Shown: in pieces, positions 2,410 to 25,628 of the stretch
How the letters are laid out: each line of letters starts with the position of its first letter
Position numbering within the stretch: position 1 is the stretch's first letter
From: an uncultured Candidatus Poseidoniales archaeon
GTDB lineage: Archaea; Thermoplasmatota; Poseidoniia; Poseidoniales; Poseidoniaceae
DNA: 32,910 nt
Reading direction: 5' to 3'
NCBI GenBank assembly: GCA_964014905.1
Contig: CAXHCG010000002.1
Location: 1 to 32,910 of the forward strand
Position numbers and translations under genes: made by a program
The notes under the pieces: model-generated
The model's input: only the letters and a program-made list of their open reading frames with translations
The model's database searches: none
Told to the model about the DNA's origin: nothing

Positions 2410-2419
2410 ATTTATACTG
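2410..2419 (-). promoter_or_regulatory. TATA-like box (minus-strand GTATAAATA) about 28 nt upstream of the ATG at 2387; implies a leaderless or short-leader transcript
   Basis: AT-rich element in the 125-bp divergent intergenic region. Its spacing to the start codon matches the archaeal TATA-to-TSS distance. Confidence 0.4.
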
Positions 2420-7315: not shown

Positions 7316-7422
7316 GAACCGACCAAAGCGACGCTGTTCAAGAGACTTCGGGAGCAATGGCTCCACACGCCTCACGCTTTGCCCATTCGCAAGTTGGTGC
7401 GCCGCGGCTGAAAGACGAAGCG

Positions 7423-7429
7423 AATATTT
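7423..7429. promoter_or_regulatory. Near-symmetric TATA-like box AATATTT, possibly serving aspS (ATG about 31 nt downstream) and the divergent surface-protein gene
   Basis: This is the only AT-rich element between the divergent starts at 7315 (-) and 7457 (+). Its spacing to the aspS ATG fits a leaderless transcript. Confidence 0.35.
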
Positions 7430-7456
7430 CATGTTCTACGCCTCAGCCCCCGAAGC

Positions 7457-9853: not shown

Positions 9854-10600
9854 ATGGCCGTTGACCGCATGCAGTGGGGTGCAGAAGCGTGGCAGCACGC
9901 AGACCTCTACATGCCCGATGACCCGTCACCCTTCCAAAAGGACGAGGGAATTCCTTGCATCATGCTCATCCACGGTGGTTTTTGGAAGGAAGAATACAGT
10001 TTGGACCTCATGCAACCCATTGCTGAAGACCTCGCAGAGGCCGGTGTTGCTGCGTGGAACATCGAGTTCAAACGCTGGTCTCCAGGAGACGAGGGCGTGT
10101 GGATGGACACCCTCTCTGATGTGCTTCGTGCTTGGGGCCAACTCGCCCTCCTGCCGGGAATTGATATCGCTCGTTCGATGGTGATGGGGCATTCGGCAGG
10201 AGGACACTTGGCCCTGCTGATGAGTGCAAAAGCCGAACGAAAACCTTGGCTGGCCATTGCCCAAGCCCCCATCACTGACCTCATCGGGGCCGACCATGCA
10301 GGACTCTCCGACGAAGGCGACGCTGTTCGACGTTGGATTGGATGCGCTCCAGAGTCCAACGAACAACTTTGGGGGCAACTCAATCCGGTTGACCATCCAC
10401 CCCGAACCAGCGTCTTGTTGTTCCACGGTGAACATGACACAGACGTCCCGTTGGAACAATCGGAGACCTATGCACGCGTGATGAAGGCCAAAGAGGCCGA
10501 TGTCCAGAAAGTGTGGCTTCCTGGCGACCATTACGACATCATCGATGTTGCCTCTGACGACTGGTTGGTGCAGCTCAACGCCATTCTTGACTGGCTGTGA
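9854..10600 (+). CDS. Alpha/beta hydrolase (esterase/arylformamidase-like)
   Basis: 248 aa. It has the oxyanion motif LIHGGFW, the nucleophile elbow GHSAGGHL, an acid residue in HGEHDTDVP, and His in PGDHYD. The HGG[FY]W + GHSAG pattern resembles Bna7/AFMID-type kynurenine formamidases and BD-FAE esterases. Confidence 0.8.
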   Translation: MAVDRMQWGAEAWQHADLYMPDDPSPFQKDEGIPCIMLIHGGFWKEEYSLDLMQPIAEDLAEAGVAAWNIEFKRWSPGDEGVWMDTLSDVLRAWGQLALLPGIDIARSMVMGHSAGGHLALLMSAKAERKPWLAIAQAPITDLIGADHAGLSDEGDAVRRWIGCAPESNEQLWGQLNPVDHPPRTSVLLFHGEHDTDVPLEQSETYARVMKAKEADVQKVWLPGDHYDIIDVASDDWLVQLNAILDWL

Positions 10601-10651: not shown

Positions 10652-11467
10652 ATGGACCTGCTTGGAACCGACTATCCATTCGTTTCAACGGCGTTGAGCG
10701 GAAAGCACGCATTTGTGTGCGGGGCAAGCAAAGGCATCGGTGAAGCCACAGCAAAAATGCTGGCCAAGGCGGGAGCTGATGTCACGGTCTGTGCTCGAAA
10801 CGCCGCCGCACTGGCCGATTTATGCTCAACGTTGGCCACGCTTGGAGGCGGACGCTTCCAATCCCTGGTGTTGGACCTTGAACAAACCGAGGGCATCGCA
10901 TCAGCCTTCGCCTCTGCCGTGGAGACGTTCGGCCCGGTCCACATCCTCATCAACAACGCAGGCGGGCCACCGGGTGGGCCTCTGTTGAACAACGAAGTCG
11001 AGGATTTTCATGCGCCCTTCAAACGCCATCTCCACGCCGCCCACACCCTCGTCAAAGCCGCCGTGCCCGCCATGGAAGCCGAGGGTTATGGCCGAATCAT
11101 TCAGATCATCTCCACTTCGGTAAAAGAGCCAATACCGAACATCGGCCTCTCCAACACACTGCGGGGAGCGATGGCCTCGTGGGCCAAGTCACTCTCAAAC
11201 GAACTCGCCCCGTGCATCACCATCAACAACGTCTTGCCCGGGTTCACAGACACTGAACGCCTCGGCAACCTTTCTACTTCAATTCAGGAACGAACCGGGA
11301 AATCGGCTGAATCGGTTCGCGAGGGATGGCTGAATCAGGTGCCCATCGGGCGCCTGATCGACCCGTTGGAAACCGCTAGCGCCATCACCTATCTTTGTCT
11401 ACCAGCCTCGAGTGGAATTCGAGGTGTCAGTTTGGCGGTTGATGGTGGCCGGCTGCGTTCAATTTGA
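10652..11467 (+). CDS. SDR family NAD(P)-dependent oxidoreductase
   Basis: 271 aa. It has VCGASKGIGEATA (TGxxxGIG-type cofactor motif), LINNAGG, and INNVLPGFTDTER. The usual YxxxK position reads LSNTLRGAMASWAKSL, which is atypical. Confidence 0.85.
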   Translation: MDLLGTDYPFVSTALSGKHAFVCGASKGIGEATAKMLAKAGADVTVCARNAAALADLCSTLATLGGGRFQSLVLDLEQTEGIASAFASAVETFGPVHILINNAGGPPGGPLLNNEVEDFHAPFKRHLHAAHTLVKAAVPAMEAEGYGRIIQIISTSVKEPIPNIGLSNTLRGAMASWAKSLSNELAPCITINNVLPGFTDTERLGNLSTSIQERTGKSAESVREGWLNQVPIGRLIDPLETASAITYLCLPASSGIRGVSLAVDGGRLRSI

Positions 11468-12378: not shown

Positions 12379-13629
12379 ATGGAGCATGACATCTTCTTCT
12401 CCATCTCGCAAACGCCTAACGCTGACGGGCACCTTCCCGACGAAGCGACCATGCTCCGAAATTACTTCCAGCAACTGACCTGTGCTGACGCCCTCGGTTT
12501 CGGCATCGGCTGGATTGCTCAGGCTCACCTCTCAACGGAGACACAGAAATCAAACGACAAGCCTGTCGTCCCCCACTGGAAGGGCGAAGTGGGCCTCTGC
12601 ACCGATTTTCCCCAGTTGGCGCTTGAATCGTTTCGCCGGACGAACCGCATCGAAATCGGGAGCGCAGTGGTCTCCATTCTCGCGTCTGGAGGACCCATCG
12701 CCCAAGCGGAACGCATGGCCAATCTTCTCAGTCTTCATGGCCTTGATGAAGATGAGCAACGTTGCCTCCACATTGGATTTTCTGCAGGACGGTTCGAGTT
12801 CATGGCCAGACCTTACGGCGTCATCCCTCGCAATTCCATCGAAGAAGCGGCATGGCCTTCCCTTCGGGGACAAATTTTCATGGAAGCCGCCGAAATTTTT
12901 CTCAGGCTCTTGCGAGGCGACGTCATCAATTCAACCATGATTCGCCAAACGGTGTTGACTCGATCCAGCTTCAGAAGCGACGAAGACTGGCAACGGGTGC
13001 AAGACGCAGCCGTGGAGTTTGAGGCCCTCGATGCACGACCAGAATCCATCCACATTCCTTCGCGGTACGTCTTTGAAGATTTGAAAATCGTCCCCACCGA
13101 ATTTCGCAGAGAATTGCTGAAATTGGTCGCAGGCACCCACGACCCACGAGCACAAACCTTTGTCAACACCATCCTTCCTGTGAAGGTCTTCAACCTGTCA
13201 ATCACCTCTCCGAAGGTCATTGACGAAACCCATCAACGCATGAGCGACGTTTACCATCAAGACGGAGGTGCTTGGCAGCGAAGGGACATGGCACGAACCA
13301 GTTTTGTGTTCCTCAACGCTGAGAAAGACCTGACACCTCAGCAACAATCAGCGGCCGCACAAAACGAAGCGGACCGGGCGCTCGGAGCCTATTGGAGCGC
13401 ATTGGAGGGAACCATAGACCCGGAAAAGGTGTCCCGTGCCGCCGACAACGCCCTCATCGGGAACGTTGAGGAAGTGGCGAAACAAATGGTCGAGCGTTTC
13501 CATCCAGACGACCGCATCATGGCTTGGTTTGATTTCTTCAACCACGACTCAGACCGAGTCTGTAGAAACATGACGGCCTACATGGAAGAGGTTGTCCCAC
13601 GGGTAGAAGCCATGCTGGAGGGGGCGTGA
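12379..13629 (+). CDS. Luciferase-like (LLM class) flavin-dependent oxidoreductase, divergent
   Basis: It has ADALGFGIGWIAQAHL near the N-terminus, IGSAVVSILASGGPIAQAE, IGFSAGRFEF, and C-terminal IGNVEEVAKQMVERF..DDRIMAWFDF, which together form an LLM TIM-barrel pattern. The ATG at 12379 is preferred over the TTG at 12361. Confidence 0.6.
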   Translation: MEHDIFFSISQTPNADGHLPDEATMLRNYFQQLTCADALGFGIGWIAQAHLSTETQKSNDKPVVPHWKGEVGLCTDFPQLALESFRRTNRIEIGSAVVSILASGGPIAQAERMANLLSLHGLDEDEQRCLHIGFSAGRFEFMARPYGVIPRNSIEEAAWPSLRGQIFMEAAEIFLRLLRGDVINSTMIRQTVLTRSSFRSDEDWQRVQDAAVEFEALDARPESIHIPSRYVFEDLKIVPTEFRRELLKLVAGTHDPRAQTFVNTILPVKVFNLSITSPKVIDETHQRMSDVYHQDGGAWQRRDMARTSFVFLNAEKDLTPQQQSAAAQNEADRALGAYWSALEGTIDPEKVSRAADNALIGNVEEVAKQMVERFHPDDRIMAWFDFFNHDSDRVCRNMTAYMEEVVPRVEAMLEGA

Positions 13630-13630: not shown

Positions 13631-14749
13631 ATGGGCATCAAGCACAACACATTCTCTGCGGTTCAGCCCGGCATGCCCGGCTCAGGGATGTATCCGGAAT
13701 CGCCCCTTGGCGAGAAGGTCGAGGGCATACCCACCGGACGGGACGTTGATTGGGAGCCTCTTGTTGACTACCGTCGAAACGGGGTATCAGAGACCACCAT
13801 CCACGGCGCAGTTGCGTGGGCTCATGGCGACGAAGTTATCCACTCGTTTGGTGGCAACGTTCTTTGTTATGGCCGTTCAATGATGAAACCCTTCATGCTG
13901 AAGGCCTTCACCGAAGAATTGGATGACTGCTCATGGGAACAGAAAGCCATTTCTGTCGCCTCCCACAACGGGGACACCGAACACGTGGCGGCCGCACAAT
14001 CTTTGCTCACACAACCCGAGTGGCCGCTGATGCTTACGCCTCTTGATGTGCCACTGATCCAATTCGGACGACAAGTCCGACGGCCTCGTCGCTGGTTCCA
14101 CACCTGTTCAGGCGAGCACGCTGCTATTTTGCGAGGATGCCGGAAAAAGGGGTGGAACCGAGCGGGATACACCCTGCCCACGCACGAGGTCTTCCAAGCT
14201 TACCTCAACCAAATTCGCGTGTACCTCGGACCGGATTGGACCCCGCTTCGGATAGCGAAAGACGGGTGTGGCCTACCGACGGTGTCCAACACCGTTTCAG
14301 AACTTGCCCAGATTTATGCGGGACTGGTCCGAGACAAAGATGAGGACTGGATTTGGGAGGCCATGGTGCGCCATCCCGACCTTGTAGGGGGGTTCAATCG
14401 ACTCGATTCAACCGTCCTCAAGGCAGGAGAAGGGCGCGTCATCGCCAAAGAGGGCGCTGACGGGTTGCTCGGCCTTGCGATTGAACACCCCGATTATCCC
14501 AAAGGCCTCGGAATCGTCGTAAAAATCGCTCACGGATGGAACTCGCAAGCGACATGGTACGTGGCTCGGGCCCTTTTGGGTGTTCTTGGGATCAACCTCC
14601 GCAATCCCTATCCGCTCCATCGGCAAAAAGCATTCATCGTCCCGGGCATCGTACCAGACCACTATGTGGATGTTCTCGAAACCGTGCCAACATGGGACGA
14701 ATGGGACCCAGACCAAGACCGATGGAACTACGAGAGCGAGGTGGTGTGA
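13631..14749 (+). CDS. Asparaginase II family (PF06089-like) protein
   Basis: 372 aa. Motifs resemble Rhizobium-type asparaginase II: HGAVAW, RSMMKPFM, ASHNGDTEHV, HTCSGEHAAIL, KDGCGLPT and AKEGADGL. GGAGG lies 9 nt upstream, and the start is 1 nt after the LLM stop. Confidence 0.7.
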   Translation: MGIKHNTFSAVQPGMPGSGMYPESPLGEKVEGIPTGRDVDWEPLVDYRRNGVSETTIHGAVAWAHGDEVIHSFGGNVLCYGRSMMKPFMLKAFTEELDDCSWEQKAISVASHNGDTEHVAAAQSLLTQPEWPLMLTPLDVPLIQFGRQVRRPRRWFHTCSGEHAAILRGCRKKGWNRAGYTLPTHEVFQAYLNQIRVYLGPDWTPLRIAKDGCGLPTVSNTVSELAQIYAGLVRDKDEDWIWEAMVRHPDLVGGFNRLDSTVLKAGEGRVIAKEGADGLLGLAIEHPDYPKGLGIVVKIAHGWNSQATWYVARALLGVLGINLRNPYPLHRQKAFIVPGIVPDHYVDVLETVPTWDEWDPDQDRWNYESEVV

Positions 14750-16197
14750 TGGACCCAGTCCTCAACTACATTGACGGTGCTTTTGTTGCCGCTCAATCCG
14801 GTGCGACCCTCAACACGGTCAATCCAGCGACAGGAGACGTCATCACCACGCTTCCTCGCTCCCGATTTGAAGATGTCGAAGAGGCGACATCCGCTGCACT
14901 GAGGGCTGCCTCCAAGTGGTCAGCGACGCCCATGAGCGAACGCATTCAATGGCTTCACCGGTTGGCCGATGCCCTCGAGGAAGAACATGAGACCATTGCT
15001 CACTTGGAGAGCATGGACACGGGAAAGCCCATCTCATTGGCTCGCCGAGTGGACGCTTCGCGCTCGGTTGCTAATTTCAGATTCTATGCGGAATTTGGTG
15101 AACAGCACACGGACCCTACCTTTCGCGACCACGGTGCGGTCAACCATGTTCACCGGTCACCCATTGGTTGCGTCGGCCTCATCACACCGTGGAACCTTCC
15201 GCTTTACCTCCTCACATGGAAGGTCGCTCCAGCCTTGCTGATGGGCAACACCATCGTGGCCAAACCTTCCGAACTCACTCCCCTCACTGCACACCATCTT
15301 GCCGGTGTTATGCAGCGCATCGGACTTCCAAAAGGCGTCTTCAACCTCGTTCACGGATTGGGTCCAGAAGTGGGTCAGGCGATTGTTGAGCACCCTCAGA
15401 TTCGGGGCATTTCCTTTACAGGAGGAACGGCGACGGGGAAAATTGTCGCAGCAACCGCTGCACCGATGTTCAAGAAAATCTCCTTGGAATTGGGTGGGAA
15501 AAATGCCACAGTGGTGCTCGATGATGCTCCACTGGAGAAGATCATGGACGAAGTGGTGCGTTCTTCCTTTACCAATTCAGGACAAGTGTGTTTGTGCGGT
15601 TCCAGGATTTTCGTCCACTCATCCATCTATGAATCCTTCAAGCAACGGTTCATTGAAGCCGTGGGAGAGATTGTCATCGGCGACCCCAGAAACGAGGTGA
15701 CCACCATGGGACCTGTCATCTCAAAAGACCACCAACAAAAGGTGGAATCCTACATCAGGTTGGGCCGTGAAGAGGGAGGCAAAATGCTGATTGGTGGAAC
15801 GGCCGGCGATTCACCCGTGGATGGCGTTCATCCCAACGGCGCCTTCCTGCGTCCAACCGTGTTTGAGGGACTAAGCCACACTTCACGCACCGCAACGGAA
15901 GAAATCTTTGGGCCCGTCGTGACCTTGCACCCCTTTGACGATGACGACGAGGCGGTCGCCATGGCCAACGCCACCGAGTACGGTCTGGCTGGCTCAATAT
16001 GGACCAGCGACCCGCAGCGCGGGCACGCTTTTGGGCAGCGACTTGACACCGGCATCGTTTGGGTAAATACGTGGTTGAACCGTGACCTGCGCACACCGTT
16101 TGGAGGTGTCAAACAGTCAGGAGTTGGCCGGGAAGGCGGGGACTGGTCGTTAAATTTCTTCTCAGAATTAACCAACATATGCGTACTCCAACCTTGA
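14749..16197 (+). CDS. NAD(P)+-dependent aldehyde dehydrogenase, 2-hydroxy/2-aminomuconic semialdehyde dehydrogenase-like
   Basis: It starts MDPVLNYIDGAFV at an ATG overlapping the upstream TGA (TGATG), with GAGGTG 5 nt upstream. It has ITPWNLPL, ELGGKNA (catalytic Glu), GQVCLCGSR (catalytic Cys) and EEIFGPV. The track's 14536 start is a spurious upstream extension. Confidence 0.9.
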   Translation: MDPVLNYIDGAFVAAQSGATLNTVNPATGDVITTLPRSRFEDVEEATSAALRAASKWSATPMSERIQWLHRLADALEEEHETIAHLESMDTGKPISLARRVDASRSVANFRFYAEFGEQHTDPTFRDHGAVNHVHRSPIGCVGLITPWNLPLYLLTWKVAPALLMGNTIVAKPSELTPLTAHHLAGVMQRIGLPKGVFNLVHGLGPEVGQAIVEHPQIRGISFTGGTATGKIVAATAAPMFKKISLELGGKNATVVLDDAPLEKIMDEVVRSSFTNSGQVCLCGSRIFVHSSIYESFKQRFIEAVGEIVIGDPRNEVTTMGPVISKDHQQKVESYIRLGREEGGKMLIGGTAGDSPVDGVHPNGAFLRPTVFEGLSHTSRTATEEIFGPVVTLHPFDDDDEAVAMANATEYGLAGSIWTSDPQRGHAFGQRLDTGIVWVNTWLNRDLRTPFGGVKQSGVGREGGDWSLNFFSELTNICVLQP

Positions 16198-16235
16198 GAA
16201 CACATGTTCAAAAGCCTCCTCTCCCTCAAGCCTTC

Positions 16236-16964
16236 ATGGACGAGGAGACGCTGCCCCTCTTCGTTCTCCCCATGGTTCTCTTCCCTGGCGAGCTGCAGGA
16301 ACTGCGCGTGTTCGAGCCGCGCTATCGGCAGATGCTCGACACCTGTGTCCTCGACGAACGCCCGTTCGGATTGGTCATGAACGACCCCTTTGAACCGACC
16401 AACGGTTGGGACGGACCCCGCCGGCATGGATGTGAAGCCATCATTCTCAACCATGAAACAAAAGGCGTAAACCACTTCATCACCATCAGCGGAGGGCGAC
16501 GTTTCTTCATCGACGAAGTCATTGAACCCGCCCTTCCACCGTTCTCCGACCCCTCGATGACGAAGTTGATTCAGGAAGGCATTGCGCCCGACATTGAAAC
16601 GTTGCTCGACCACCTCCCGGAAGACGCTGAACACAGCCGCTTGTACATTTCTGCAAAGGTCACCTACCTCGATGAAGCCGGAGAACTGGACGAGGAGGAG
16701 CAAGGCTTTCTCCGCACCATCACGTCGACCGTCGTTCAGCAAGCCGGACGCGGAATGAACGTTGACACAGCGGTGCTGAACCAATGGGTTTCCTCCATCT
16801 GCGAGGAGCAAATCGACGGCCGAAAAGAATCCATCTACAACATTGCTGCGTTGTGCCTCAGCGACCTTGAGTCAAGGCAGCAACTGTTGGCGTGTTCAAG
16901 CGCCACTGAAGCGATACATGAACTGCGAACGCACGTCATGGCCTTCGTCGATGAGGAAGAATGA
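16236..16964 (+). CDS. Stand-alone LON N-terminal (substrate-binding, PUA-like) domain protein
   Basis: [34 protein letters not shown] matches the LON_substr_bdg N-terminal signature (LPLFPL..VLFPG..L.IFEPRY). The alternative ATG at 16179 would overlap the ALDH gene by 19 nt. Confidence 0.7.
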
Positions 16965-18421: not shown

Positions 18422-19324
18422 ATGGGCAAAGGTCGCATTGTTGCCGGTTGCATCGCACCGCATCCACCACACTTGGTCTACGCAGAAAATCCACCGCAAA
18501 ATGAACCGGTCGCCGAAGGCGGCTGGGAACAACTCCGTTGGGGCTATGAACGGCTACGTGCCTCACTCGCAGACAAGGACTACGACGCCATCGTCCTTCT
18601 TTCACCGCACTGGCAAACCTACGTTGGAACCCATTTCCTTGGCCTCCCTCACTTCGAGGGCCTTTCGGTTGACCCGGTGTTTCCAAATCTGTTTCGCTAT
18701 CACTACGACATGAACGTCGACGTTGAACTTTCCAAAGCCATTCACGATGAAGCAGAAGCTGCTGGCCTACCCGTGAAAATGATGGAAAACCCCGATTTCA
18801 GAGTCGATTACGGGACCATCACCACCGGGCATTTGTTCAATCCTGATTGGGATAAACCGATTGTGGTCATCTCAAGCAACCGTTCAACCGCTTATTATTC
18901 CGTGGAAGTCATGCAGGAAATCATGATCGAACTTGGCAAAGTGACGCGGAAGGCCATCGAAGCAAGTGGAAAAAAGGTCGTCGTGCTCGCCAGCAATTCA
19001 CTTTCCCACCGCCACTTCACAACCGAATCCGAGGTCCCCGAGGACATGAGCAAAGAGCACATCACCAGCCATGCCATGCATCTTTGGGACATGCGAATCA
19101 TCGATTACATGCGCAGCGGTCAATCGCAGCGTATCCTTGACGAAATGCCAGAATTCACGGAGCAAGCCATCGCTGAAAGCGATGGAGGAGGACTGTCTTG
19201 GCTCCTTTCAACCCTTGGCGTGCCGGACTATCCAGCCATCCTCCACGGCTACGGAACCATCATCGGGACTGGAAATGCCGTTGTTGAATGGCCTTGCCAC
19301 GCCCATGAGGTGAGCGCGGAATGA
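18422..19324 (+). CDS. Class III (LigB-type) extradiol dioxygenase catalytic subunit, 2-aminophenol 1,6-dioxygenase beta (AmnB/CnbCb)-like
   Basis: 300 aa. It has IAPHPPHLVYAENPPQNEP, LLSPHWQ, FRVDYGTITT, ASNSLSHRHF and QAIAESDGGG. H14, H63 and E252 sit where the 2-His-1-carboxylate triad is expected. Confidence 0.8.
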   Translation: MGKGRIVAGCIAPHPPHLVYAENPPQNEPVAEGGWEQLRWGYERLRASLADKDYDAIVLLSPHWQTYVGTHFLGLPHFEGLSVDPVFPNLFRYHYDMNVDVELSKAIHDEAEAAGLPVKMMENPDFRVDYGTITTGHLFNPDWDKPIVVISSNRSTAYYSVEVMQEIMIELGKVTRKAIEASGKKVVVLASNSLSHRHFTTESEVPEDMSKEHITSHAMHLWDMRIIDYMRSGQSQRILDEMPEFTEQAIAESDGGGLSWLLSTLGVPDYPAILHGYGTIIGTGNAVVEWPCHAHEVSAE

Positions 19325-20766
19325 GCGAAGGCAGTGTCGTCGGTTCCTTTGTGGTACCCGTTCATCCACACACCGTCCTCGCTCCAGACGAAAGCCCTGG
19401 TTGGCGGGCCTTGCGCGATGCTTTTGATGAAGCAGCACAGATGATTCGAGACCTCAAGGCCGATTTACTCATCGTTTATTCAACCACGTGGCCGTCCATC
19501 ATCGGACACCAAATCCAAGCGGACCCGAACCCTGAATGGGTGATGGTCGACCATGACTTCCACGACCTCGGATCAATTCCCTATTCGTTCAACATTGACG
19601 CTGAGTTTGCCCATGCATGGGACGACGCCAACCGAAACAGAGGTCTTCAAAGCCGATGCGTGAACTACAAAGGGTTCCCCATCGATGTGGGTTCGGTCGT
19701 TGCCCTGACCTTGCTCAATCCCAACAACGACATTCCTGCCGTCATCGTCTCTTCGAACATGTACGCCAATCGAAGCGAAACCACCGTGCTTGCGAAGTCA
19801 TGCCTTGACGTCATCAAAGAACAGGGGCGTCGAGCCGTGGCCATCACGGCCATGTCCCTCTCTAATCGAATGTTCACGGATTTCATTGAGCCAAAAGAAG
19901 ACAAAATTCACTCGCTCAAAGACGATGAATGGAATCGAAAAATCCTCGAGTTCTTGACAGAGGGACGACTGGAGGACGTCGGCCAACTTTCAAGAACCAT
20001 CCACCGCCAAATCCGCGTCCAAAAAGTCGTGGCGTTCAAGCCCATGTGGTGGCTTTCAGCCATGAATGGAAACCGAAACGACCTCAGTGGGCGAGTCCTG
20101 GCCTACGAAGCCATTCACGGAGCTGGAGGCGCCGTGGTTCACGTTGACCCCACTCCGTCCGGCGTGGGCGACAAAGAATACGACGAAGACGACATTGAAT
20201 ACTACCACGGAGAGCGAGGAGTCCTCGACACCGTGGCAGAAACCGAAGACGAAACGTTGGCCTCGCCCGATACAAAGACACCTCAGTCAGACGGTTCTCC
20301 AGAGGTCGAGTCCAGTGGACCAGCGCTGTGGAACCCTACGGAGGCCGAAGGTTCAGTCAACACCGATTCCGCACCCAAACCAGTGGGAGCCTACCCCCAT
20401 GCCCGGAAAGTCGGAAACATGCTGTTCCTTTCCGGCGTTGGGCCTCGCCAACCGGGGACCAATGCCATACCTGGCGGGCCAATTCATGATGAACATGGTG
20501 AACCGTCCGACTACGACATCAAGGCACAGACGCATGCTGTTGTGAACAACGTTCGACGCATTGTCGAGGAAGCCGGAGCCACCATGGACCAAGTGGTTGA
20601 TGTGACCACCTTCCTCGTGGACATGAAGCGCGACTTTGCAGGTTACAACGAGGTCTGGGCTGAAACGCTCGGCAAGGTTGGCCCCACGCGGACAACCTTG
20701 GCCATCGACGCTCTGCCAACCCCCATTGCAGTGGAAATGAAGGTCATCGTCCACATGGGCGAGTGA
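19321..20766 (+). CDS. Fusion protein: degenerate LigB-fold subunit (AmnA/alpha-like) + acidic linker + RidA/YjgF (2-aminomuconate deaminase-like) domain
   Basis: ATGA overlap with the upstream gene, and GAGGTGA 7 nt upstream. The N-terminal ~275 aa are paralogous to the upstream protein, but the metal and catalytic His positions are lost (STTW in place of SPHW, SLSNRMF in place of SLSHRHF). The C-terminal ~130 aa read APKPVGAYPHARKVGNMLFLSGVGP...PTRTTLAIDALPTPIAVEMKVIV, a RidA signature that includes the Arg. Confidence 0.8.
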   Translation: MSEGSVVGSFVVPVHPHTVLAPDESPGWRALRDAFDEAAQMIRDLKADLLIVYSTTWPSIIGHQIQADPNPEWVMVDHDFHDLGSIPYSFNIDAEFAHAWDDANRNRGLQSRCVNYKGFPIDVGSVVALTLLNPNNDIPAVIVSSNMYANRSETTVLAKSCLDVIKEQGRRAVAITAMSLSNRMFTDFIEPKEDKIHSLKDDEWNRKILEFLTEGRLEDVGQLSRTIHRQIRVQKVVAFKPMWWLSAMNGNRNDLSGRVLAYEAIHGAGGAVVHVDPTPSGVGDKEYDEDDIEYYHGERGVLDTVAETEDETLASPDTKTPQSDGSPEVESSGPALWNPTEAEGSVNTDSAPKPVGAYPHARKVGNMLFLSGVGPRQPGTNAIPGGPIHDEHGEPSDYDIKAQTHAVVNNVRRIVEEAGATMDQVVDVTTFLVDMKRDFAGYNEVWAETLGKVGPTRTTLAIDALPTPIAVEMKVIVHMGE

Positions 20767-20878: not shown

Positions 20879-22537
20879 TTGGCAAGAGATACCGTAGAAA
20901 GCATACTCAAAGGCGTCGCATCGGGAGACGCAAAGGGAGTCGCTAAGGAAATCAAAGGAACCCTCTCCAGAACGATAGGTCTCGCCACCCTGGTGATTCT
21001 CTCGTTGTCTTCGATGCTGGGCTCAGGTTTGTTCATTCTTCCTGCCTTTGCACAGGAAGTGGCAGGAGACGGTATGTGGTTTGCCTTTGTTTTGGCAGCG
21101 TCAGTGGTCCTCACAGGCGCCTTCTCAAAATCGGAACTCGCCAGTGCCATGCCCGAATCCGGTGGTGTTTACATCTACATGGAACGCACCTACGGCTCCC
21201 TCATGGGGACCATCAGTGGATTGGGCTTGTTTGCCTCGTTTATGCTCAAATCAGCGTTTGCTCTGATCGGTTTCGCCGCCTACCTCGAAGTGGTCACGGC
21301 CGCTCTTGACGTTGAGGTTAATCCGATTACGATGGCGCTGGTTCTCCTCACGTTCATCGTCATCATCAACATCACCGGCGTGAAGAAAATAAAAAAGGTC
21401 CAAACGCCAATTGTTGCAACAGCCGTTGGTTTCCTTCTCCTTCTGTGCATCATGGCCGTCCTGGGCGGTGATGCAGACTTCTCGCGACCCGTAACCAACA
21501 TTGACTATCTCAGTCCGGAAATGGGGACCGCAGCAGCCCTCGTGTTTGTGGCCTACTCCGGAGCCATCAAGGTTGGCGCAATCGGTGGCGAAGTGATGGA
21601 CCCTGAAAAAAACATCCCTCGAGGCATGTTCGCCTCGCTCTTGGTGGCAACCATCCTCTACGCAGGCGTTGCGTTTGTGATGGTATCGGTCCTCCCCACC
21701 GGATGGCACATGGACGACGGTCATGCAATTGAAAATCCAATCTACGTGTTTGCCGAACATGTGGGAGGCAGCACCATCGGCGTAATCGCTGCCCTCCTGG
21801 CCATCATTACGATGGCCTCAATGGCGCTTGCAGGTGTCTTGTCCGCCTCCCGGTTTCTTTTCGCCATGGCCAGAGACAACCTGCTTCCGTCCAAACTTGA
21901 AGACCTCAACCCAACCTATGAGACACCCCACTGGCCCATCATCATTACCGGATTGATGATGGCGACCGCCATTTTGACCATCGACGTCCACGCCATCGCA
22001 GAACTTGCGTCAGGGTTCAACATCATGGTGTTCGTTGCCATCAATGCCTCAGTGGTCGTGATGAGGCACGCTGGTCCACGGCACAACTGGAACCCACCTT
22101 ACAAATCCCCTCTTTACCCACTCCCTCAAATTTACGGTTCTGGAACCGGGATTCTTCTGCTGTGGCTCATCGGAACGAACGCCCTTATCGGAGCGGCAGG
22201 GGCCATCGGACTGGGCGTTGTCGTGTGGCTGGTGTACGGCCGCAAACACATCCTCGAGGAAGCACGCATCACGCCGTTTGCAACGTTCAAATCTCGCTTC
22301 ATAAATCCGACAAAAGAGGCGCATGAACGCTTCCTCACGGCGTTCCACTCAGCGGATATCGGCGGGAAAAACCACTTGACGCTCAGCGAATTTAGATCGG
22401 CCTTGACGCAAGGACTCGGAATGGACTTGGCACCGATGGAAGTTCGGATGTACTTTCACAAAGCGGATGCAGACGGAGACGGGGTCGTTGACATCGACGA
22501 GTTCCTCAATGCCATGGAACGCAATGAAGAGGAATGA
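20879..22537 (+). CDS. APC-superfamily amino acid/polyamine transporter with a C-terminal EF-hand pair
   Basis: 552 aa, roughly 12 TM helices, with an APC N-terminal signature (LSLSSMLGSGLFILP, SELASAMPESGGVYIYMERTYG). The cytoplasmic C-terminus carries a canonical EF loop, DADGDGVVDIDE. The TTG start is the only start-type codon before TM1. Confidence 0.85.
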   Translation: MARDTVESILKGVASGDAKGVAKEIKGTLSRTIGLATLVILSLSSMLGSGLFILPAFAQEVAGDGMWFAFVLAASVVLTGAFSKSELASAMPESGGVYIYMERTYGSLMGTISGLGLFASFMLKSAFALIGFAAYLEVVTAALDVEVNPITMALVLLTFIVIINITGVKKIKKVQTPIVATAVGFLLLLCIMAVLGGDADFSRPVTNIDYLSPEMGTAAALVFVAYSGAIKVGAIGGEVMDPEKNIPRGMFASLLVATILYAGVAFVMVSVLPTGWHMDDGHAIENPIYVFAEHVGGSTIGVIAALLAIITMASMALAGVLSASRFLFAMARDNLLPSKLEDLNPTYETPHWPIIITGLMMATAILTIDVHAIAELASGFNIMVFVAINASVVVMRHAGPRHNWNPPYKSPLYPLPQIYGSGTGILLLWLIGTNALIGAAGAIGLGVVVWLVYGRKHILEEARITPFATFKSRFINPTKEAHERFLTAFHSADIGGKNHLTLSEFRSALTQGLGMDLAPMEVRMYFHKADADGDGVVDIDEFLNAMERNEEE

Positions 22538-23027: not shown

Positions 23028-25628
23028 TTACTCATGACGAATCCACTCGCCTTCGGGTGTCACTTCCCAATATTGGAGTTCCTCGGAGACGTCGACGTAC
23101 CAACCTGTCTGGCCTTGGACAGTGGAGGGTGTTGCCTGCATCACGCCGATTTTGCCGGCTTCAAGTGCGAGATCCTTCATCGATTCAAGGGTCAAGCCAT
23201 GGCGCTCATGAAGGGGCGTGTTGTCCTCAACAGGTGATTCTACGATCTCGTCTTCATCCGCATCATCGTCGTACTCATCGTCATCAAAAGCGTCCTCAAG
23301 CCACTCCTCATCGGAAGCCTCTGCAGCCCTTCGGGTGAGGGTGATGAGAACGGCTAGAAGAAGAACGAGAAGGATGGCTGCCATGGTCATGGCGGTGTTG
23401 GTTGAACCGACCGCTCCACCGAGCAGAACCTCCTCAACATCGAAGAAGTTTTGAGCCAAAAGACCACTCCAACGGACCGTGCAAGAACGATCAGTGCCTC
23501 CATTTTGAATGTCAACCTCCCACGTACCGTTGGTGACGAAGCTGGTTGGTCCTGTTGTGCATGATACACTGGCGTTGGCCTTTGGAATGCTCAACGTGTT
23601 GCCGTATTCATCGGTCGCAAAAGCATTCAACAAAACGATGTCTCCTTCAGCGAGAATGGAGCGGCTTAGACTGGCTTGAATGCGAACAGGGGAACCAGGT
23701 TCAATGGTGAGTGGGATGGTGTGAACGGCACCTTCGTCTTCGAGAATGAGCGAATATGTTCCGACCTGTTTGCCGGTGAATTGCCAATATCCAAGTCCTG
23801 TAGGTGAGGCTGTCAATTCCCCAAACGAAGCGTTCAAGCTTGAGGTCACAGATACCGATTCGGCAACGTTGCCGTGGACGTCAACCACCTGAATAAAGAG
23901 GTCCTGCGGCAGTCCAGCCTTCACCACCAACCCCTCGTCAGCATCCGTGATCAACCCGTAAGCGTTGCCGGCCACGACCGTCAAACGAACGGTTGCAAAG
24001 ACACCGTCCGCATTCACTCGAATCTCATGACCGCCGACAGTCGTCGCCGTCCAGCGCCCGTTGTTGAGGAGCATCTCAAGGGTGATGTCATCACCGTCAA
24101 GGGTCCAATTGAGCGCAATGGAGTTCAGTTCGTTGGAGTAGGCATCGAAAAACATAGGATTCAGGTCCAAGGACCCGTCAGCCGGGACTCGGTCTCCTTC
24201 GCCTTCAAGCGTGATGAAGGCCAACCTTCCTGGCCGAACCTCAAACGATGCATCGGTCGTGAACATCGCCCCAGTGGCGTTGTCGAACCAACTTCCTTCA
24301 ATCCGCCATGATTGAACGCGCTCGGCTTGGAGGAGCGCATACGACGTATCGAGAACGAGTTCTTCCGTATCGCCCATGGTCGGTTCAATGGTCCCGTCAA
24401 CCACCCAACGGTTTCCTTTGATGTCCTCGGCTACAAGTTCGATCACAACCTGATCGCCTGCTGATGGATTCCGAGGTTCAAGTTGGAGCTTGATGTCAAT
24501 GGCCCTGCCATGGAGAACATCCAGATCCAACGAACTGCTCACCGTACCGTCCGTGCCCGTGATGGTCGCTGGACCGGTCGCAGACGGATTCCAGAACACA
24601 CGCTGATTCTCATCCACAGAAAGCCCTCCAGAAGAGGCCGTAAGAGCGTGAATCGAGGGTGAAACCATACCGATGTACCCGTTCACATCTCTTCGCTCAA
24701 ACATCAGTTCATAGGATTCACCGGCCAAAAATTCCGCTGGTGAATCAACCACCATGAGGGTAGAGGCAACAGCATCGCCGGGAATCACATGGAGTGTCGT
24801 GCTCCCCGTAATGTTGCCTGAAGAGACCGTTATCAGCCATCGACCGGTGTTCGTAGCAAGGTATTCACCCTGGGCATTGAACGAACCGTTTTCTGCAAAC
24901 CAAGACAGTGAACCAACCTTCGAGAGCGGCATGTCATAGCCGTTGATGTCAACAAGAGAGGGGCGAATCGTTTGCAGCGTTCCGGCTCTCACAACAAGGG
25001 GTTCATCGAACACAAAGGAGTGAGGAGCCCCTGCGATGACATCGATGGCCGCCCGAGATTCGAGTTGGTTGTAGCGCACCCGAGCTTGGACTTCACCGAG
25101 TTCTTCGGCCGTCCACGATGGTTGACCATGACCAGCGTAATCGCCGTTGATATCCCAAACCATGGATGATGGCCCAACCATGCGGTTTCCTCGTCCGTCA
25201 AGAACATCCGCAGTGAGGGTGGTTGGTTCCAAAACACCGACAGAACGTGTCGTAATCTCAATGGATGTGGGTACCCCTGGATTCACAGAGATGTTGGTAC
25301 TCGCTATCAAACCATTGTGTTCCGCTGTAATTTCAATCAAACCTGCCGACCAGGGGTAAAACAGACCGTCTTCGGAAATCGTCCCGTTGCTGACCGACCA
25401 AGACACGTCCCCGGTCAGCACGTTGTTGACCGGGTCGTAGATAATGGCCTCAAACAACACCACTTCATCGGCTGAGATGGAGGTTGGGGCAGCATCTATT
25501 ACAACACGGTCGGCAGTTCCTGAACGCATTGAAACGCTGGCGTCCCCCAAAAGTGAAGGCACCGTTGTTGACCATGTCCCGAGGAGGACAAGCCCAACAA
25601 GAACGGCGCAAGCCTTCGGGAACGACAC
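23028..25628 (-). CDS. Type-I surface protein with tandem Big_2-like Ig domains, C-terminal TM, acidic tail and a Trp-rich terminal motif
   Basis: 866 aa. GTG start with GAGGT 9 nt upstream, overlapping the stop of the giant gene. The signal peptide is MSFPKACAVLVGLVLLGTWS. Repeated units follow the Big_2 pattern ...DVSWSVSNGTISEDGLFYPWSAGLIEITAEHNG.... The TM helix is AMTMAAILLVLLLAVLITLT, followed by RRAAE, DEEWLEDAFDDDEYDDDADEDE, and a C-terminal GWYVDVSEELQYWEVTPEGEWIRHE. Confidence 0.87.
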   Translation of the reverse strand: MSFPKACAVLVGLVLLGTWSTTVPSLLGDASVSMRSGTADRVVIDAAPTSISADEVVLFEAIIYDPVNNVLTGDVSWSVSNGTISEDGLFYPWSAGLIEITAEHNGLIASTNISVNPGVPTSIEITTRSVGVLEPTTLTADVLDGRGNRMVGPSSMVWDINGDYAGHGQPSWTAEELGEVQARVRYNQLESRAAIDVIAGAPHSFVFDEPLVVRAGTLQTIRPSLVDINGYDMPLSKVGSLSWFAENGSFNAQGEYLATNTGRWLITVSSGNITGSTTLHVIPGDAVASTLMVVDSPAEFLAGESYELMFERRDVNGYIGMVSPSIHALTASSGGLSVDENQRVFWNPSATGPATITGTDGTVSSSLDLDVLHGRAIDIKLQLEPRNPSAGDQVVIELVAEDIKGNRWVVDGTIEPTMGDTEELVLDTSYALLQAERVQSWRIEGSWFDNATGAMFTTDASFEVRPGRLAFITLEGEGDRVPADGSLDLNPMFFDAYSNELNSIALNWTLDGDDITLEMLLNNGRWTATTVGGHEIRVNADGVFATVRLTVVAGNAYGLITDADEGLVVKAGLPQDLFIQVVDVHGNVAESVSVTSSLNASFGELTASPTGLGYWQFTGKQVGTYSLILEDEGAVHTIPLTIEPGSPVRIQASLSRSILAEGDIVLLNAFATDEYGNTLSIPKANASVSCTTGPTSFVTNGTWEVDIQNGGTDRSCTVRWSGLLAQNFFDVEEVLLGGAVGSTNTAMTMAAILLVLLLAVLITLTRRAAEASDEEWLEDAFDDDEYDDDADEDEIVESPVEDNTPLHERHGLTLESMKDLALEAGKIGVMQATPSTVQGQTGWYVDVSEELQYWEVTPEGEWIRHE

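What the first reader, a model, noticed from the sequence alone, without database searches (positions are those of the whole stretch)
18422..20766. AmnB/AmnA-like extradiol dioxygenase pair whose degenerate subunit is fused to a RidA deaminase
**Catalytic subunit.** Gene 1 (300 aa) has LigB-type catalytic motifs: APHPPH, SPHW, SLSHRHF and AIAESDGGG. H14, H63 and E252 lie one residue off the His13/His62/Glu251 iron ligands I recall for the Comamonas CnbCb/AmnB beta subunit.

**Degenerate subunit and fusion.** Gene 2 overlaps gene 1 by ATGA. It starts with a paralogous LigB fold that has lost those His residues (STTW, SLSNRMF), exactly as in the non-catalytic AmnA alpha subunit. The B-then-A order matches amnBA operons. 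After an acidic ~70-aa linker, its C-terminus is a complete RidA/YjgF domain that includes the conserved Arg.

**Pathway fit.** In the 2-aminophenol and kynurenine lower pathways, the RidA-family enzyme AmnD deaminates 2-aminomuconate. An ALDH of the right type lies 2.2 kb upstream. A dioxygenase-subunit/deaminase Rosetta-stone fusion is not something I know to be described. It would place an aminophenol-type meta-cleavage route in a marine archaeon-like genome.
Basis: partly seen in the sequence, partly recalled or inferred. Interest (0 to 1): 0.72.

Follow-up and report, generated by a model that had tools for sequence, protein, structure and literature searches.

The report
Aminophenol ring-cleavage enzyme fused to deaminase
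Abundant uncultured ocean archaea (Marine Group II) carry an aminophenol ring-opening dioxygenase whose non-catalytic subunit is fused to the deaminase acting two steps later, inside a conserved gene module shared with bacteria that points to an undescribed way of breaking down tryptophan-derived kynurenine.

Summary
Gene 1 (18422-19324) is an AmnB/CnbCb-type catalytic subunit (E 1.7e-108 to 8ihg_A; His14/His63/Glu252 present). Gene 2 (19321-20766, ATGA overlap) is an AmnA-type subunit lacking the metal triad, then a ~60-residue acidic, probably disordered linker, then a Rid domain. The Rid domain's closest solved relative is the Pseudomonas AP-3 2-aminomuconate deaminase (6izh), including its special loop insertion. 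The upstream ALDH carries the two arginines diagnostic of 2-amino/2-hydroxymuconate-semialdehyde dehydrogenases.

The fusion is not an artefact: it is intact in 81/81 sequences examined and present in at least 80 Poseidoniales species representatives. It is not archaeon-specific, since Oligoflexus tunisiensis and other bacteria have it.

New here: in those bacteria the pair sits in a tight operon, SDR - luciferase-like protein - asparaginase-II-like hydrolase - ALDH - AmnB - AmnA::Rid - kynurenine formamidase. The window holds orthologues (45-62% identity) of the first six. The fusion therefore belongs to a conserved, uncharacterised six-to-seven-gene module linked to kynurenine. I found no paper describing the fusion or the module.

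Verdict: a new variant of a known kind, moderately to highly interesting. The physiological substrate is not established.

The parts
18422..19324 (+). amnB-like catalytic (beta) subunit of a 2-aminophenol-type 1,6-dioxygenase, 300 aa
   Evidence: PDB 8ihg_A E 1.7e-108 and 3vsg_B 1.1e-104. 56% identity to AmnB. H14/H63/E252 triad plus H196 and Y130 present. Directly upstream of the fusion gene in 80/80 related loci.
19321..20157 (+). amnA-like non-catalytic (alpha) LigB-fold domain of the fusion protein (res 1-279)
   Evidence: PDB 3vsg_A 7.3e-42. Lacks the triad (V14, T56, Q234, N182) and shares CnbCa deletions. Model matches alpha chains at TM 0.91-0.93. The 'ST(T/Q)W' motif is invariant across the fusion family.
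20158..20340 (+). acidic inter-domain linker (res 280-340) with a conserved motif GDKEYDEDDIEYYHGERGVLD followed by a variable stretch
   Evidence: pLDDT below 50 across 280-340. 17 D+E against 3 K+R. Res 281-300 have 0.80 identity; res 301-340 have 0.25-0.40 identity with gaps among 81 orthologues. Linker length ranges from about 15 to 95 aa across the family.
20341..20766 (+). Rid-family domain of 2-aminomuconate-deaminase type (res 341-481) plus stop codon
   Evidence: PF01042 5e-24. Best PDB hit 6izh at 1.5e-26, with the shared Lp2 insertion. Cleft residues S371, G372, D427, R457 and K474 kept. Model against 6izh: TM 0.87-0.91, rmsd 1.7 A.
14749..16197 (+). HMSDH-family aldehyde dehydrogenase (2-aminomuconate-6-semialdehyde dehydrogenase type)
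   Evidence: Best PDB hits are all AMSDH (about 1e-137). Counterparts of Arg120 and Arg464, said to be diagnostic of the HMSDH family (PMC4286809), are present, as are the catalytic Cys/Glu/Asn. 48% identical to the ALDH of the O. tunisiensis operon. Its start overlaps the AsnII stop codon.
13631..14749 (+). Asparaginase_II (class 3, R. etli-type) family hydrolase, module member of unknown substrate
   Evidence: PF06089 1.7e-46. Keeps ReAV Ser48, Lys51, Ser80, Lys263, Cys135 and Cys189; Lys138 is Glu. 61% identical to the O. tunisiensis operon member. Moves as a unit with the LLM and ALDH genes in L052/54/55.
12379..13629 (+). divergent luciferase-like (flavin-dependent monooxygenase superfamily) protein, module member
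   Evidence: Pfam Bac_luciferase only 0.0044. The top 50 fold matches of a low-confidence model are all LLM superfamily. 45% identical (E 3e-132) to the operon member in O. tunisiensis. 1-nt gap to the next gene.
10652..11467 (+). short-chain dehydrogenase/reductase, module member
   Evidence: PF13561/PF00106. 49% identical to the first gene of the O. tunisiensis operon. Conserved at this place in MGII loci.
9854..10600 (+). alpha/beta-hydrolase (BD-FAE family) esterase; candidate functional replacement of the bacterial kynurenine formamidase (weak evidence)
   Evidence: PF20434 4.7e-18. Weak PDB hit to Drosophila kynurenine formamidase 4e11 at 1.7e-4. Stays next to the SDR after rearrangement in L079/L080. 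A related esterase domain is fused to an AmnA-like domain in P0175. No cyclase-type KynB in the MGII loci.
20879..22537 (+). APC-family amino-acid permease with C-terminal EF-hand pair; possible substrate importer (inference from position only)
   Evidence: PF13520 1e-37 plus EF-hand_7. Directly downstream of the fusion gene in 62/80 loci.

Best explanation
Genes 1 and 2 encode a two-subunit, AmnBA/CnbC-type extradiol dioxygenase that opens the ring of an o-aminophenol to give 2-aminomuconate-6-semialdehyde (2-AMS).

Gene 1 is the iron-binding catalytic beta subunit. Gene 2 supplies the non-catalytic alpha subunit and, on a flexible acidic tether, a Rid-family domain of the 2-aminomuconate deaminase type. 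The HMSDH-type ALDH 2.2 kb upstream would oxidise the short-lived semialdehyde to 2-aminomuconate, and the tethered Rid domain would hydrolyse that to 4-oxalocrotonate plus ammonium.

The fusion fixes a 1:1 stoichiometry and keeps step 3 next to step 1. Rid domains normally trimerise, while alpha sits at the periphery of an (alpha-beta)2 tetramer. The fusion is therefore expected (inference) to cross-link tetramers into a larger assembly that confines unstable intermediates.

The pair is not a stand-alone curiosity. It is the end of a conserved module (SDR, luciferase-like protein, asparaginase-II-like hydrolase, ALDH, AmnB, AmnA::Rid). In Oligoflexus-type bacteria this module is a single operon ending in a KynB kynurenine formamidase. 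In Poseidoniales it is slightly dispersed.

Shown: family membership of each protein, catalytic residues, reality and spread of the fusion, and conservation of the module. Inferred: the actual substrate, channelling and oligomeric state, and the kynurenine origin of the aminophenol.
For: - AmnB identity.
- AmnA-type degenerate domain.
- Rid domain nearest to 2-aminomuconate deaminase 6izh, with the shared loop insertion and invariant cleft residues.
- ALDH with Arg120/Arg464 equivalents, stated in PMC4286809 to be confined to the HMSDH family.
- The deaminase (as opposed to a tautomerase) is the gene that marks the amino branch of the pathway: PMC10470539.
- 2-AMS decays with a half-life of about 9-35 s: PMC4286809. 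This gives a rationale for co-localisation.
- Alpha is peripheral in the tetramer: PMC10470539.
- Fusion intact in 81/81 sequences and strict amnB adjacency in 80/80 loci.
- Fusion present in at least 80 Poseidoniales species and in more than 120 bacterial clusters, including cultured Oligoflexus tunisiensis.
- Seven-gene operon in L081, L084 and L086, six-gene operon in L082/L083.
- Window proteins are 45-62% identical to all six operon members.
- The last operon gene is KynB (4cob 6.8e-49; TIGR03035 209 bits).
- An independent fusion of an HMSDH-type ALDH with three AmnD-like Rid domains (P0126) links steps 2 and 3.
Against: - No enzyme activity was tested, and substrate specificity within AmnB-like enzymes cannot be read from sequence.
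- The classical lower pathway (4-oxalocrotonate decarboxylase, hydratase, aldolase) is absent from the window and from the 20-kb loci examined. The fate of the product is unknown.
- In the archaeal window the ALDH and the dioxygenase genes are separated by unrelated genes (a LON-domain protein, PanB and a membrane protein). Co-regulation there is not shown.
- The Arg56 that stabilises the hexamer of the AP-3 deaminase is Glu here, so the oligomeric prediction is open.
- The identity of the iron ligands (His13/His62/Glu251 of CnbCb) is recalled, not confirmed in a paper I could read.
- The roles of the SDR, the luciferase-like protein and the asparaginase-like protein are unexplained by the classical 2-aminophenol pathway.
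Confidence: 0.78

Rival explanations
1. The dioxygenase acts on a carboxylated or side-chain-bearing o-aminophenol from the ordinary kynurenine pathway (3-hydroxyanthranilate or 3-hydroxykynurenine). It would replace the cupin-type 3-hydroxyanthranilate dioxygenase. The other module genes would trim the product.
For: KynB closes the bacterial operon. An amino-acid permease follows the fusion gene in 62/80 archaeal loci. The ALDH and Rid steps are the same as in the bacterial kynurenine-to-2-aminomuconate route.
Against: No kynurenine 3-monooxygenase, kynureninase or ACMS decarboxylase is present in any operon or locus examined. Gene 1 is 53-56% identical to enzymes whose characterised substrates are 2-aminophenol and 2-amino-5-chlorophenol. 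Whole genomes could not be searched.
Confidence: 0.15
2. The Rid domain is not a pathway deaminase. It would be either a generic RidA imine-quenching module or merely a trimerisation scaffold attached to the alpha subunit.
For: Rid domains are promiscuous imine/enamine deaminases and obligate trimers (PMC4433059). NCBIfam places the domain closest to the general TIGR00004 model, below its cut-off.
Against: The closest solved relative, by both sequence and structure, is the dedicated 2-aminomuconate deaminase, with which it shares the unusual Lp2 insertion. Cleft residues including Arg457 are invariant across archaeal and bacterial fusions. Rid domains of the same type are fused to an HMSDH-type ALDH in P0126.
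Confidence: 0.06
3. The enzyme is a catechol-type extradiol dioxygenase, and the locus is an ordinary catechol meta-cleavage fragment.
For: AmnAB-type enzymes also cleave catechol, and HMSDH enzymes accept 2-hydroxymuconate semialdehyde (PMC10470539; PMC4286809).
Against: The marker of the catechol branch is a tautomerase or hydrolase, and the marker of the amino branch is the deaminase (PMC10470539). Here the deaminase is covalently attached. Catechol products inhibit AmnAB-type enzymes.
Confidence: 0.03
4. The fusion is an artefact of a frameshift, mis-assembly or gene calling.
For: None found. One representative (P0128) looks frameshifted, but in the opposite sense: it is a degraded fusion.
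Against: The frame is intact in 81/81 independent assemblies. More than 200 database clusters from ENA, JGI, NCBI and Logan carry both domains. The fusion is present in the 7.57-Mb contig of the cultured isolate O. tunisiensis.
Confidence: 0.01

Closest known systems
2-aminophenol 1,6-dioxygenase AmnAB (Pseudomonas sp. AP-3, PDB 8ihg) / CnbCaCb (Comamonas, PDB 3vsg-3vsj) / ARO dioxygenase (Micromonospora, 7txy)
   Same: Two paralogous LigB-fold subunits. The beta subunit carries the metal triad and catalytic His, and the alpha subunit lacks them. The beta-then-alpha gene order has overlapping stop and start codons. Gene 1 is 53-56% identical to the solved beta subunits. The alpha domain superposes at TM 0.91-0.93.
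   Different: The alpha subunit carries a C-terminal linker and a Rid domain. The alpha domain is only about 33% identical to CnbCa and clusters with other fused alphas, apart from canonical AmnA. The host is an archaeon. No lower-pathway genes are adjacent.
2-aminomuconate deaminase of Pseudomonas sp. AP-3 (PDB 6izh; called AmnE in PMC6742747 and AmnD in other papers)
   Same: Rid fold. It shares the extended Lp2 loop that generic RidA proteins lack. The cleft residues (Ser-Gly, acidic residue, Arg, Lys) are conserved. It is the best hit by both sequence and structure.
   Different: It is a domain of a larger protein rather than a free 142-aa protein. The hexamer-stabilising Arg56 is replaced by Glu. 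Identity is only about 38%.
2-aminomuconate-6-semialdehyde dehydrogenase (AMSDH/NbaE/AmnC; PDB 4i1w, 4npi, 7bzv)
   Same: E of about 1e-137. The catalytic Cys, Glu and Asn are present, as is the Arg120/Arg464 pair that binds the substrate carboxylate and imine.
   Different: It is below the NCBIfam equivalog cut-offs (546 bits against 693). It is translationally coupled to an asparaginase-II-like gene rather than to amnBA.
Actinobacterial ARO microcompartment (PMC10470539)
   Same: The same three early enzymes (AmnAB-type dioxygenase, ALDH, deaminase) are kept physically together. The stated rationale is to handle unstable and toxic intermediates. The true upstream substrate is unknown there too.
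   Different: There, co-localisation comes from a protein shell and encapsulation peptides. Here it comes from covalent fusion. No shell genes are present.
Bacterial kynurenine pathway to 2-aminomuconate (TDO, KynB, KMO, kynureninase, HAAO, ACMSD, AMSDH, deaminase)
   Same: KynB in the bacterial operons, plus an AMSDH-type ALDH and a 2-aminomuconate-type deaminase.
   Different: KMO, kynureninase, HAAO and ACMSD are not in the operon. A luciferase-like protein, an asparaginase-II-like hydrolase, an SDR and AmnBA stand in their place.

Membership tests
AmnB/CnbCb catalytic subunit (class III extradiol dioxygenase, LigB superfamily) | LigB fold, with characterised AmnB/CnbCb as closest relatives | tested here: met
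   PF02900 5e-23. 8ihg_A 1.7e-108, 3vsg_B 1.1e-104 and 7txy_B 2.5e-94; the next family (HpaD-type) scores only 1.5e-10.
AmnB/CnbCb catalytic subunit (class III extradiol dioxygenase, LigB superfamily) | 2-His-1-carboxylate iron triad (CnbCb His13, His62, Glu251) and catalytic His195 | tested here: met
   H14, H63, E252 and H196 align with these residues. That these are the ligands is recalled from the 3VSH structure work and was not re-read here.
AmnB/CnbCb catalytic subunit (class III extradiol dioxygenase, LigB superfamily) | Cleaves 2-aminophenol to 2-aminomuconate-6-semialdehyde | not testable with these tools
   Needs an enzyme assay.
AmnA/CnbCa non-catalytic subunit | Paralogous LigB fold lacking the metal ligands, encoded next to the beta subunit | tested here: met
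   V14, T56, Q234 and N182 at the ligand and base columns, and shared CnbCa deletions. 3vsg_A 7.3e-42, TM 0.93. ATGA overlap with gene 1.
AmnA/CnbCa non-catalytic subunit | Free-standing polypeptide of about 270 aa | tested here: not met
   The protein is 481 aa with a C-terminal Rid domain. This is the feature that makes it a variant.
2-aminomuconate deaminase (Rid family, AmnD/AmnE type) | Rid fold with conserved cleft residues, including the Arg required for imine hydrolysis | tested here: met
   PF01042 5e-24. S371, G372, D427, R457 and K474 correspond to the cleft residues listed in PMC6742747. They are invariant or conservative across 34 family members.
2-aminomuconate deaminase (Rid family, AmnD/AmnE type) | Extended Lp2 loop distinguishing AmnE from generic RidA | tested here: met
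   An insertion of about 13 residues aligns with 6izh residues about 44-59 and is absent from PH0854 and TTHA0137.
2-aminomuconate deaminase (Rid family, AmnD/AmnE type) | Homohexamer stabilised by Arg56 | tested here: not met
   Arg56 aligns with Glu. The oligomeric state is unknown.
2-aminomuconate deaminase (Rid family, AmnD/AmnE type) | Deaminates 2-aminomuconate | not testable with these tools
   Needs a coupled assay. The substrate is unstable.
HMSDH family ALDH (AMSDH/AmnC/NbaE) | [quoted passage not shown] | tested here: met
   'DASR' and 'LNRDLRTPFGG' align with both arginines. Cys302, Glu268 and Asn169 equivalents are present.
Classical amn/cnb/nba 2-aminophenol operon | Lower pathway genes (4-oxalocrotonate decarboxylase, 2-oxopent-4-enoate hydratase, aldolase, acetaldehyde dehydrogenase) clustered with amnBA | tested here: not met
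   None found among the window ORFs scanned or in the called genes of the bacterial loci. Presence elsewhere in the genomes could not be tested.
Kynurenine-pathway gene cluster | Kynurenine formamidase adjacent | tested here: inconclusive
   Met in bacterial operons: KynB, 4cob 6.8e-49 and TIGR03035 at 209 bits against a 223-bit cut-off. In the window there is no KynB homologue, only a BD-FAE alpha/beta-hydrolase with a weak match to insect kynurenine formamidase (1.7e-4).
Luciferase-like monooxygenase superfamily (gene at 12379-13629) | LLM TIM-barrel fold | tested here: inconclusive
   The Pfam hit is below threshold (0.0044). The model has low confidence (pLDDT 53.5), but all top 50 fold matches are LLM members. 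The subfamily and cofactor are not resolved.

The most novel reading that the evidence does not exclude
The module encodes an undescribed route from kynurenine to 2-aminophenol that bypasses kynurenine monooxygenase, kynureninase, 3-hydroxyanthranilate dioxygenase and ACMS decarboxylase.

Proposed steps:
1. A formamidase deformylates N-formylkynurenine. This is KynB in bacteria and possibly the alpha/beta-hydrolase in Marine Group II.
2. The luciferase-like enzyme performs a Baeyer-Villiger-type oxygen insertion into the aryl ketone of kynurenine. The product is a 2-aminophenyl beta-aspartyl ester, which can rearrange to N4-(2-hydroxyphenyl)asparagine.
3. The asparaginase-II-like Ser-Lys hydrolase releases L-aspartate and 2-aminophenol.
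4. AmnB/AmnA::Rid and the ALDH convert 2-aminophenol to 4-oxalocrotonate and ammonium.

For surface-ocean Poseidoniales this would be a way to feed on (photo-)oxidised tryptophan.

This is chemical inference from gene content only. The SDR is unexplained. A RutA-like amide-cleaving role or a hydroxylase role for the luciferase-like protein is equally compatible with the fold data.
Probability: 0.22. Interest if true: 0.88.

Novelty: new variant of a known kind. Interest (0 to 1): 0.68.

Why it matters
Poseidoniales (Marine Group II) are among the most abundant archaea of the sunlit ocean. None has been cultured, so what they eat is inferred from genomes.

A strongly conserved module for an o-aminophenol ring-cleavage route gives a concrete, testable substrate hypothesis for them. 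AmnB is 82-97% identical across at least 80 species, and the module was evidently exchanged with bacteria as a unit.

For enzymology, the fusion of a non-catalytic dioxygenase subunit to the deaminase two steps downstream is an unusual answer to the problem of intermediates that decay in seconds. An independent ALDH::Rid fusion addresses the same problem, and actinobacteria solve it with a protein microcompartment.

The cultured bacterium Oligoflexus tunisiensis carries the whole operon, so the biochemistry can be tested directly. That includes the three unexplained enzymes that sit between kynurenine formamidase and the dioxygenase.

Tried and rejected
- **Frameshift or assembly artefact:** rejected.
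- **Other LigB subfamilies (HpaD, MhpB, MEMO, DODA):** all far weaker than AmnB/AmnA.
- **Archaeon-specific invention:** rejected, because bacterial fusions are numerous.
- **RNA genes and tRNAs in the window:** none found.
- **Literature:** searches combining Marine Group II or Poseidoniales with aminophenol, dioxygenase or kynurenine, amnB with archaea, 2-aminomuconate deaminase with fusion, and kynurenine formamidase with luciferase-like or asparaginase found nothing describing the fusion or the module. A search for kynurenine with Baeyer-Villiger or 2-aminophenol returned 94 papers holding at least two of the three terms. None of the 12 listed concerns such a route, and I read none of them. 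The Rid-family survey PMC4433059 mentions Rid fusions only generically.
- **Sequence search of the 422-aa protein against PDB:** nothing found. Its AlphaFold model is poor because the alignment was shallow (24 sequences, at least 83% identical). Only the superfamily, not the subfamily, can be claimed.
- **Isatin-hydrolase reading of the bacterial cyclase gene:** rejected in favour of kynurenine formamidase (6.8e-49 against 2.4e-5).
- **Cyclase-type formamidase in the archaeal loci:** none found by tblastn.
- **Whole-genome questions:** I could not determine whether TDO/IDO, KMO, kynureninase, ACMSD or the lower meta-cleavage genes exist elsewhere in these genomes, because only ±10 kb around each hit is retrievable.
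- **Tree of alpha domains:** this is neighbour-joining without support values, so it is only indicative.


Full report
**1. Observation.** Pfam gives LigB for gene 1. For gene 2 it gives LigB (res 17-266) plus Ribonuc_L-PSP/Rid (res 349-478). The window has about 55% G+C and no RNA genes. Its proteins match Poseidoniales (Marine Group II archaea) assemblies.

**2. The dioxygenase pair.** The best solved relatives of gene 1 are the beta subunits of 2-aminophenol 1,6-dioxygenases: 8ihg_A at 1.7e-108, 3vsg_B at 1.1e-104 and 7txy_B at 2.5e-94. The next family, 3,4-dihydroxyphenylacetate dioxygenase, scores only 1.5e-10.

In a five-way alignment, gene 1 carries H14, H63 and E252 at the CnbCb H13/H62/E251 columns, plus H196 and Y130. 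It is 53-56% identical to the solved beta subunits.

The N-terminal 279 residues of gene 2 match the alpha subunits best (3vsg_A 7.3e-42). They have V14, T56, Q234 and N182 at the ligand and base columns, and they share the alpha-specific deletions. An AlphaFold model built on a 34-sequence alignment (mean pLDDT 74.6) superposes on alpha chains at TM 0.91-0.93 and rmsd 2.0 A, ahead of the beta chains. That H13/H62/E251 are the iron ligands is recalled, not re-read.

**3. The Rid domain and linker.** Residues 341-481 fold as a Rid domain. The best match is the Pseudomonas sp. AP-3 2-aminomuconate deaminase 6izh, by sequence (1.5e-26) and by structure (TM 0.87-0.91, rmsd 1.7 A). The domain shares the long Lp2 loop insertion that generic RidA proteins lack.

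It keeps the cleft residues listed in PMC6742747: S371, G372, D427 for Glu88, R457 for Arg117 and K474 for Lys135. These are invariant or conservative across archaeal and bacterial family members. The hexamer-stabilising Arg56 is Glu here, so the quaternary structure cannot be inferred.

The linker (res 280-340) is acidic, with 17 D+E against 3 K+R, and is predicted disordered (pLDDT below 50). Its first 20 residues (GVGDKEYDEDDIEYYHGERG) are conserved among 81 orthologues at 0.80 identity. Residues 301-337 vary in sequence and length. Across the wider family the linker ranges from about 15 to 95 residues.

**4. The fusion is real and widespread.** The fused ORF is intact in all 81 sequences examined: the window plus 80 GTDB species representatives. 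In 60 of the 80 loci it starts in the same ATGA overlap with amnB. Another 120 database clusters at 84% identity or more carry both Pfam domains. All named hosts among the 80 are Poseidoniales or Poseidoniaceae, except one MAG labelled Verrucomicrobiales, which is probably a binning error.

A scan of 1.8 billion cluster representatives found fusions at 41-49% identity. Searching with one of them (P0123) returned 120 further LigB::Rid proteins. These include ones from the cultured bacterium Oligoflexus tunisiensis, Oligoflexus sp. and a Bdellovibrionales MAG. Databases name these proteins 'Rid family hydrolase', '2-aminomuconate deaminase' or '2-aminophenol 1,6-dioxygenase alpha subunit'.

A neighbour-joining tree without support values groups fused alpha domains apart from canonical AmnA. 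It places the archaeal clade next to the bacterial fusions. I found no paper that describes the fusion.

**5. The ALDH.** The ALDH at 14749-16197 has 2-aminomuconate-6-semialdehyde dehydrogenases as its seven best solved relatives, at about 1e-137. It carries counterparts of Arg120 and Arg464. According to PMC4286809 these bind the substrate and are strictly conserved in the HMSDH family but absent from other ALDHs. Steps 1, 2 and 3 of the 2-aminophenol route are therefore all encoded in the locus.

An independent protein, P0126, joins an HMSDH-type ALDH (same two arginines) to three tandem Rid domains with the same loop insertion. This is a second fusion link within the same pathway.

**6. 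The larger module (new).** In O. tunisiensis the fusion gene lies in a tight same-strand operon: SDR, luciferase-like protein, Asparaginase_II, ALDH, LigB (AmnB), LigB::Rid, Cyclase. The same seven genes recur in two other bacterial contigs. The first six recur in a fourth, and reduced versions occur elsewhere.

The cyclase-family gene is a KynB kynurenine formamidase (4cob 6.8e-49, with isatin hydrolase only 2.4e-5; TIGR03035 at 209 bits against a 223-bit cut-off).

The window encodes orthologues of the first six operon members:

| Gene | Identity to O. tunisiensis |
|---|---|
| SDR | 49% |
| Luciferase-like protein (E 3e-132) | 45% |
| Asparaginase-II-like | 61% |
| ALDH | 48% |
| AmnB | 62% |
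| Fusion (alpha / Rid) | 46% / 50% |

In the window and in most of the 80 archaeal loci the order is: esterase, SDR, TPR protein, luciferase-like protein, AsnII-like, ALDH, LON-domain protein, PanB, a membrane protein on the opposite strand, amnB, amnA::rid, permease. The luciferase-like, AsnII-like and ALDH genes are translationally coupled, with a 1-nt gap and a TGATG overlap. They invert as one block in three loci.

The AsnII-like protein keeps the catalytic Ser48/Lys51/Ser80/Lys263 and Cys135/Cys189 of the R. etli enzyme, with Lys138 replaced by Glu.

The 422-aa protein is a very divergent luciferase-like monooxygenase superfamily member. Its Pfam hit is 0.0044 and the model is poor (pLDDT 53.5). 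All 50 best fold matches belong to that superfamily, including RutA, type II Baeyer-Villiger monooxygenases, SsuD, LuxAB and F420 enzymes.

No KynB homologue is present in the archaeal loci. A BD-FAE alpha/beta-hydrolase heads the array. It has a weak match to insect kynurenine formamidase (1.7e-4). A related esterase domain is fused to an AmnA-like domain in a Rhodospirillaceae protein. That is suggestive only.

**7. How it most likely works.**

Shown:
- A catalytic AmnB.
- A degenerate AmnA fused to a deaminase-type Rid domain.
- An HMSDH-type ALDH.
- Conservation of all three across two domains of life.

Established background:
- 2-AMS cyclises to picolinate within seconds (PMC4286809; PMC10470539).
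- 2-aminomuconate is also unstable.
- The deaminase is the gene that marks the amino branch.
- The alpha subunits are peripheral in the (alpha-beta)2 tetramer.
- Actinobacteria enclose the same three enzymes in a microcompartment.

Inference: the fusion fixes stoichiometry and proximity of step 3 to step 1. Rid domains trimerise while the tetramer presents two tethered copies, so the fusion probably cross-links tetramers into a larger assembly. The conserved acidic linker motif may recruit a partner such as the ALDH.

**8. What remains open.** The classical lower pathway genes are not in the window or in any locus examined. The origin of the aminophenol is also unknown.

The KynB gene in the bacterial operons, and the amino-acid permease beside the archaeal fusion gene, point to kynurenine. 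The operon lacks KMO, kynureninase, HAAO and ACMSD. It offers instead a flavin-monooxygenase-like protein and a beta-aspartyl-type hydrolase.

A chemically coherent but untested reading runs as follows:
1. Baeyer-Villiger oxygenation of the aryl ketone of kynurenine.
2. Hydrolysis of the resulting beta-aspartyl ester or anilide to aspartate plus 2-aminophenol.
3. Ring cleavage of 2-aminophenol by AmnBA.

I give this about 0.2 probability. The SDR is unexplained. A RutA-like or hydroxylase role for the luciferase-like protein fits the fold data equally well. Searches found no paper on such a route.

**9. Verdict.** The proteins belong to known families. The covalent AmnA::Rid architecture and the six-to-seven-gene module around it appear undescribed in the literature I could search, although thousands of copies sit in sequence databases under generic names.

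I rate it a new variant of a known kind, interest 0.68. It offers a testable hypothesis about the diet of uncultured Marine Group II archaea and a cultured bacterial model (O. tunisiensis) in which to test it.

Noticed in passing
window 8-40: The sequence TCGTCGGCAGCGTCAGATGTGTATAAGAGACAG is the Nextera read-1 transposase adapter, left untrimmed at the contig end. The database copy of this contig is 32,870 bp, which is the window length minus 40.
   Followed up: partly
window 3-2411 (-), 3305-7432 (-), 23028-25628 (-), 25641-32891 (-): Four very large minus-strand ORFs. One has at least 803 aa and runs off the left end. The others are 1375 aa, 866 aa and 2416 aa. They carry Ig-like, CBM96 and disaggregatase-type domains and are presumably surface proteins. 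GC skew is positive over these stretches.
   Followed up: partly
window 20879-22537 (+): An APC-family amino-acid permease with a C-terminal EF-hand pair, an unusual combination for an archaeal transporter. It lies directly downstream of the fusion gene in 62/80 related loci.
   Followed up: partly
P0126 (JGI metagenome contig, 2.9 kb): An N-truncated 873-aa protein consisting of an HMSDH-type ALDH (both diagnostic arginines present) fused to three tandem AmnD-like Rid domains, in effect a covalent Rid trimer on the step-2 enzyme. Its organism is unknown.
   Followed up: partly
P0175 / P0198 (Rhodospirillaceae MAG, MYF07529.1): Proteins of 1034 and 682 aa that combine a branched-chain amino-acid ABC permease domain with an AmnA-like LigB domain and, in P0175, a BD-FAE esterase domain. 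I did not check whether these are real fusions or merged gene calls.
   Followed up: no
P0122 (Diplonema japonicum transcriptome) and P0182, P0239: Proteins made of three tandem Rid domains related to the fusion's Rid domain, including one from a marine eukaryote.
   Followed up: no
L013 (NZEQ01000011.1, labelled Verrucomicrobiales bacterium ARS100): Carries a locus fully syntenic with, and 86% identical to, the Poseidoniales loci. This is most likely an archaeal contig mis-binned into a bacterial MAG.
   Followed up: no
window 20158-20220 (res 280-300 of gene 2); A2 columns about 285-320: The otherwise disordered linker contains conserved acidic motifs. The archaeal motif is GDKEYDEDD[VI]E[YF][YF]HGERGVLD, also recognisable in P0121 and P0128. 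Long-linker bacterial forms have a different motif, SEEGSQA-x-[LM]VEELTDFE. Their function is unknown; they may be docking peptides.
   Followed up: partly
window 16179-16964 (+): A protein consisting only of a LON substrate-binding domain. Its ORF as listed overlaps the ALDH stop by 19 nt. Together with PanB and a 164-aa membrane protein it interrupts the module in Poseidoniales, but it is absent from the bacterial operons.
   Followed up: no
window 13631-14749 (+): The asparaginase-II-like protein replaces the zinc-ligand Lys138 of the R. etli enzyme with Glu, while keeping both Cys ligands and both Ser-Lys dyads. It is one of the most conserved genes of the locus, at 85-95% identity across Poseidoniales.
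   Followed up: partly
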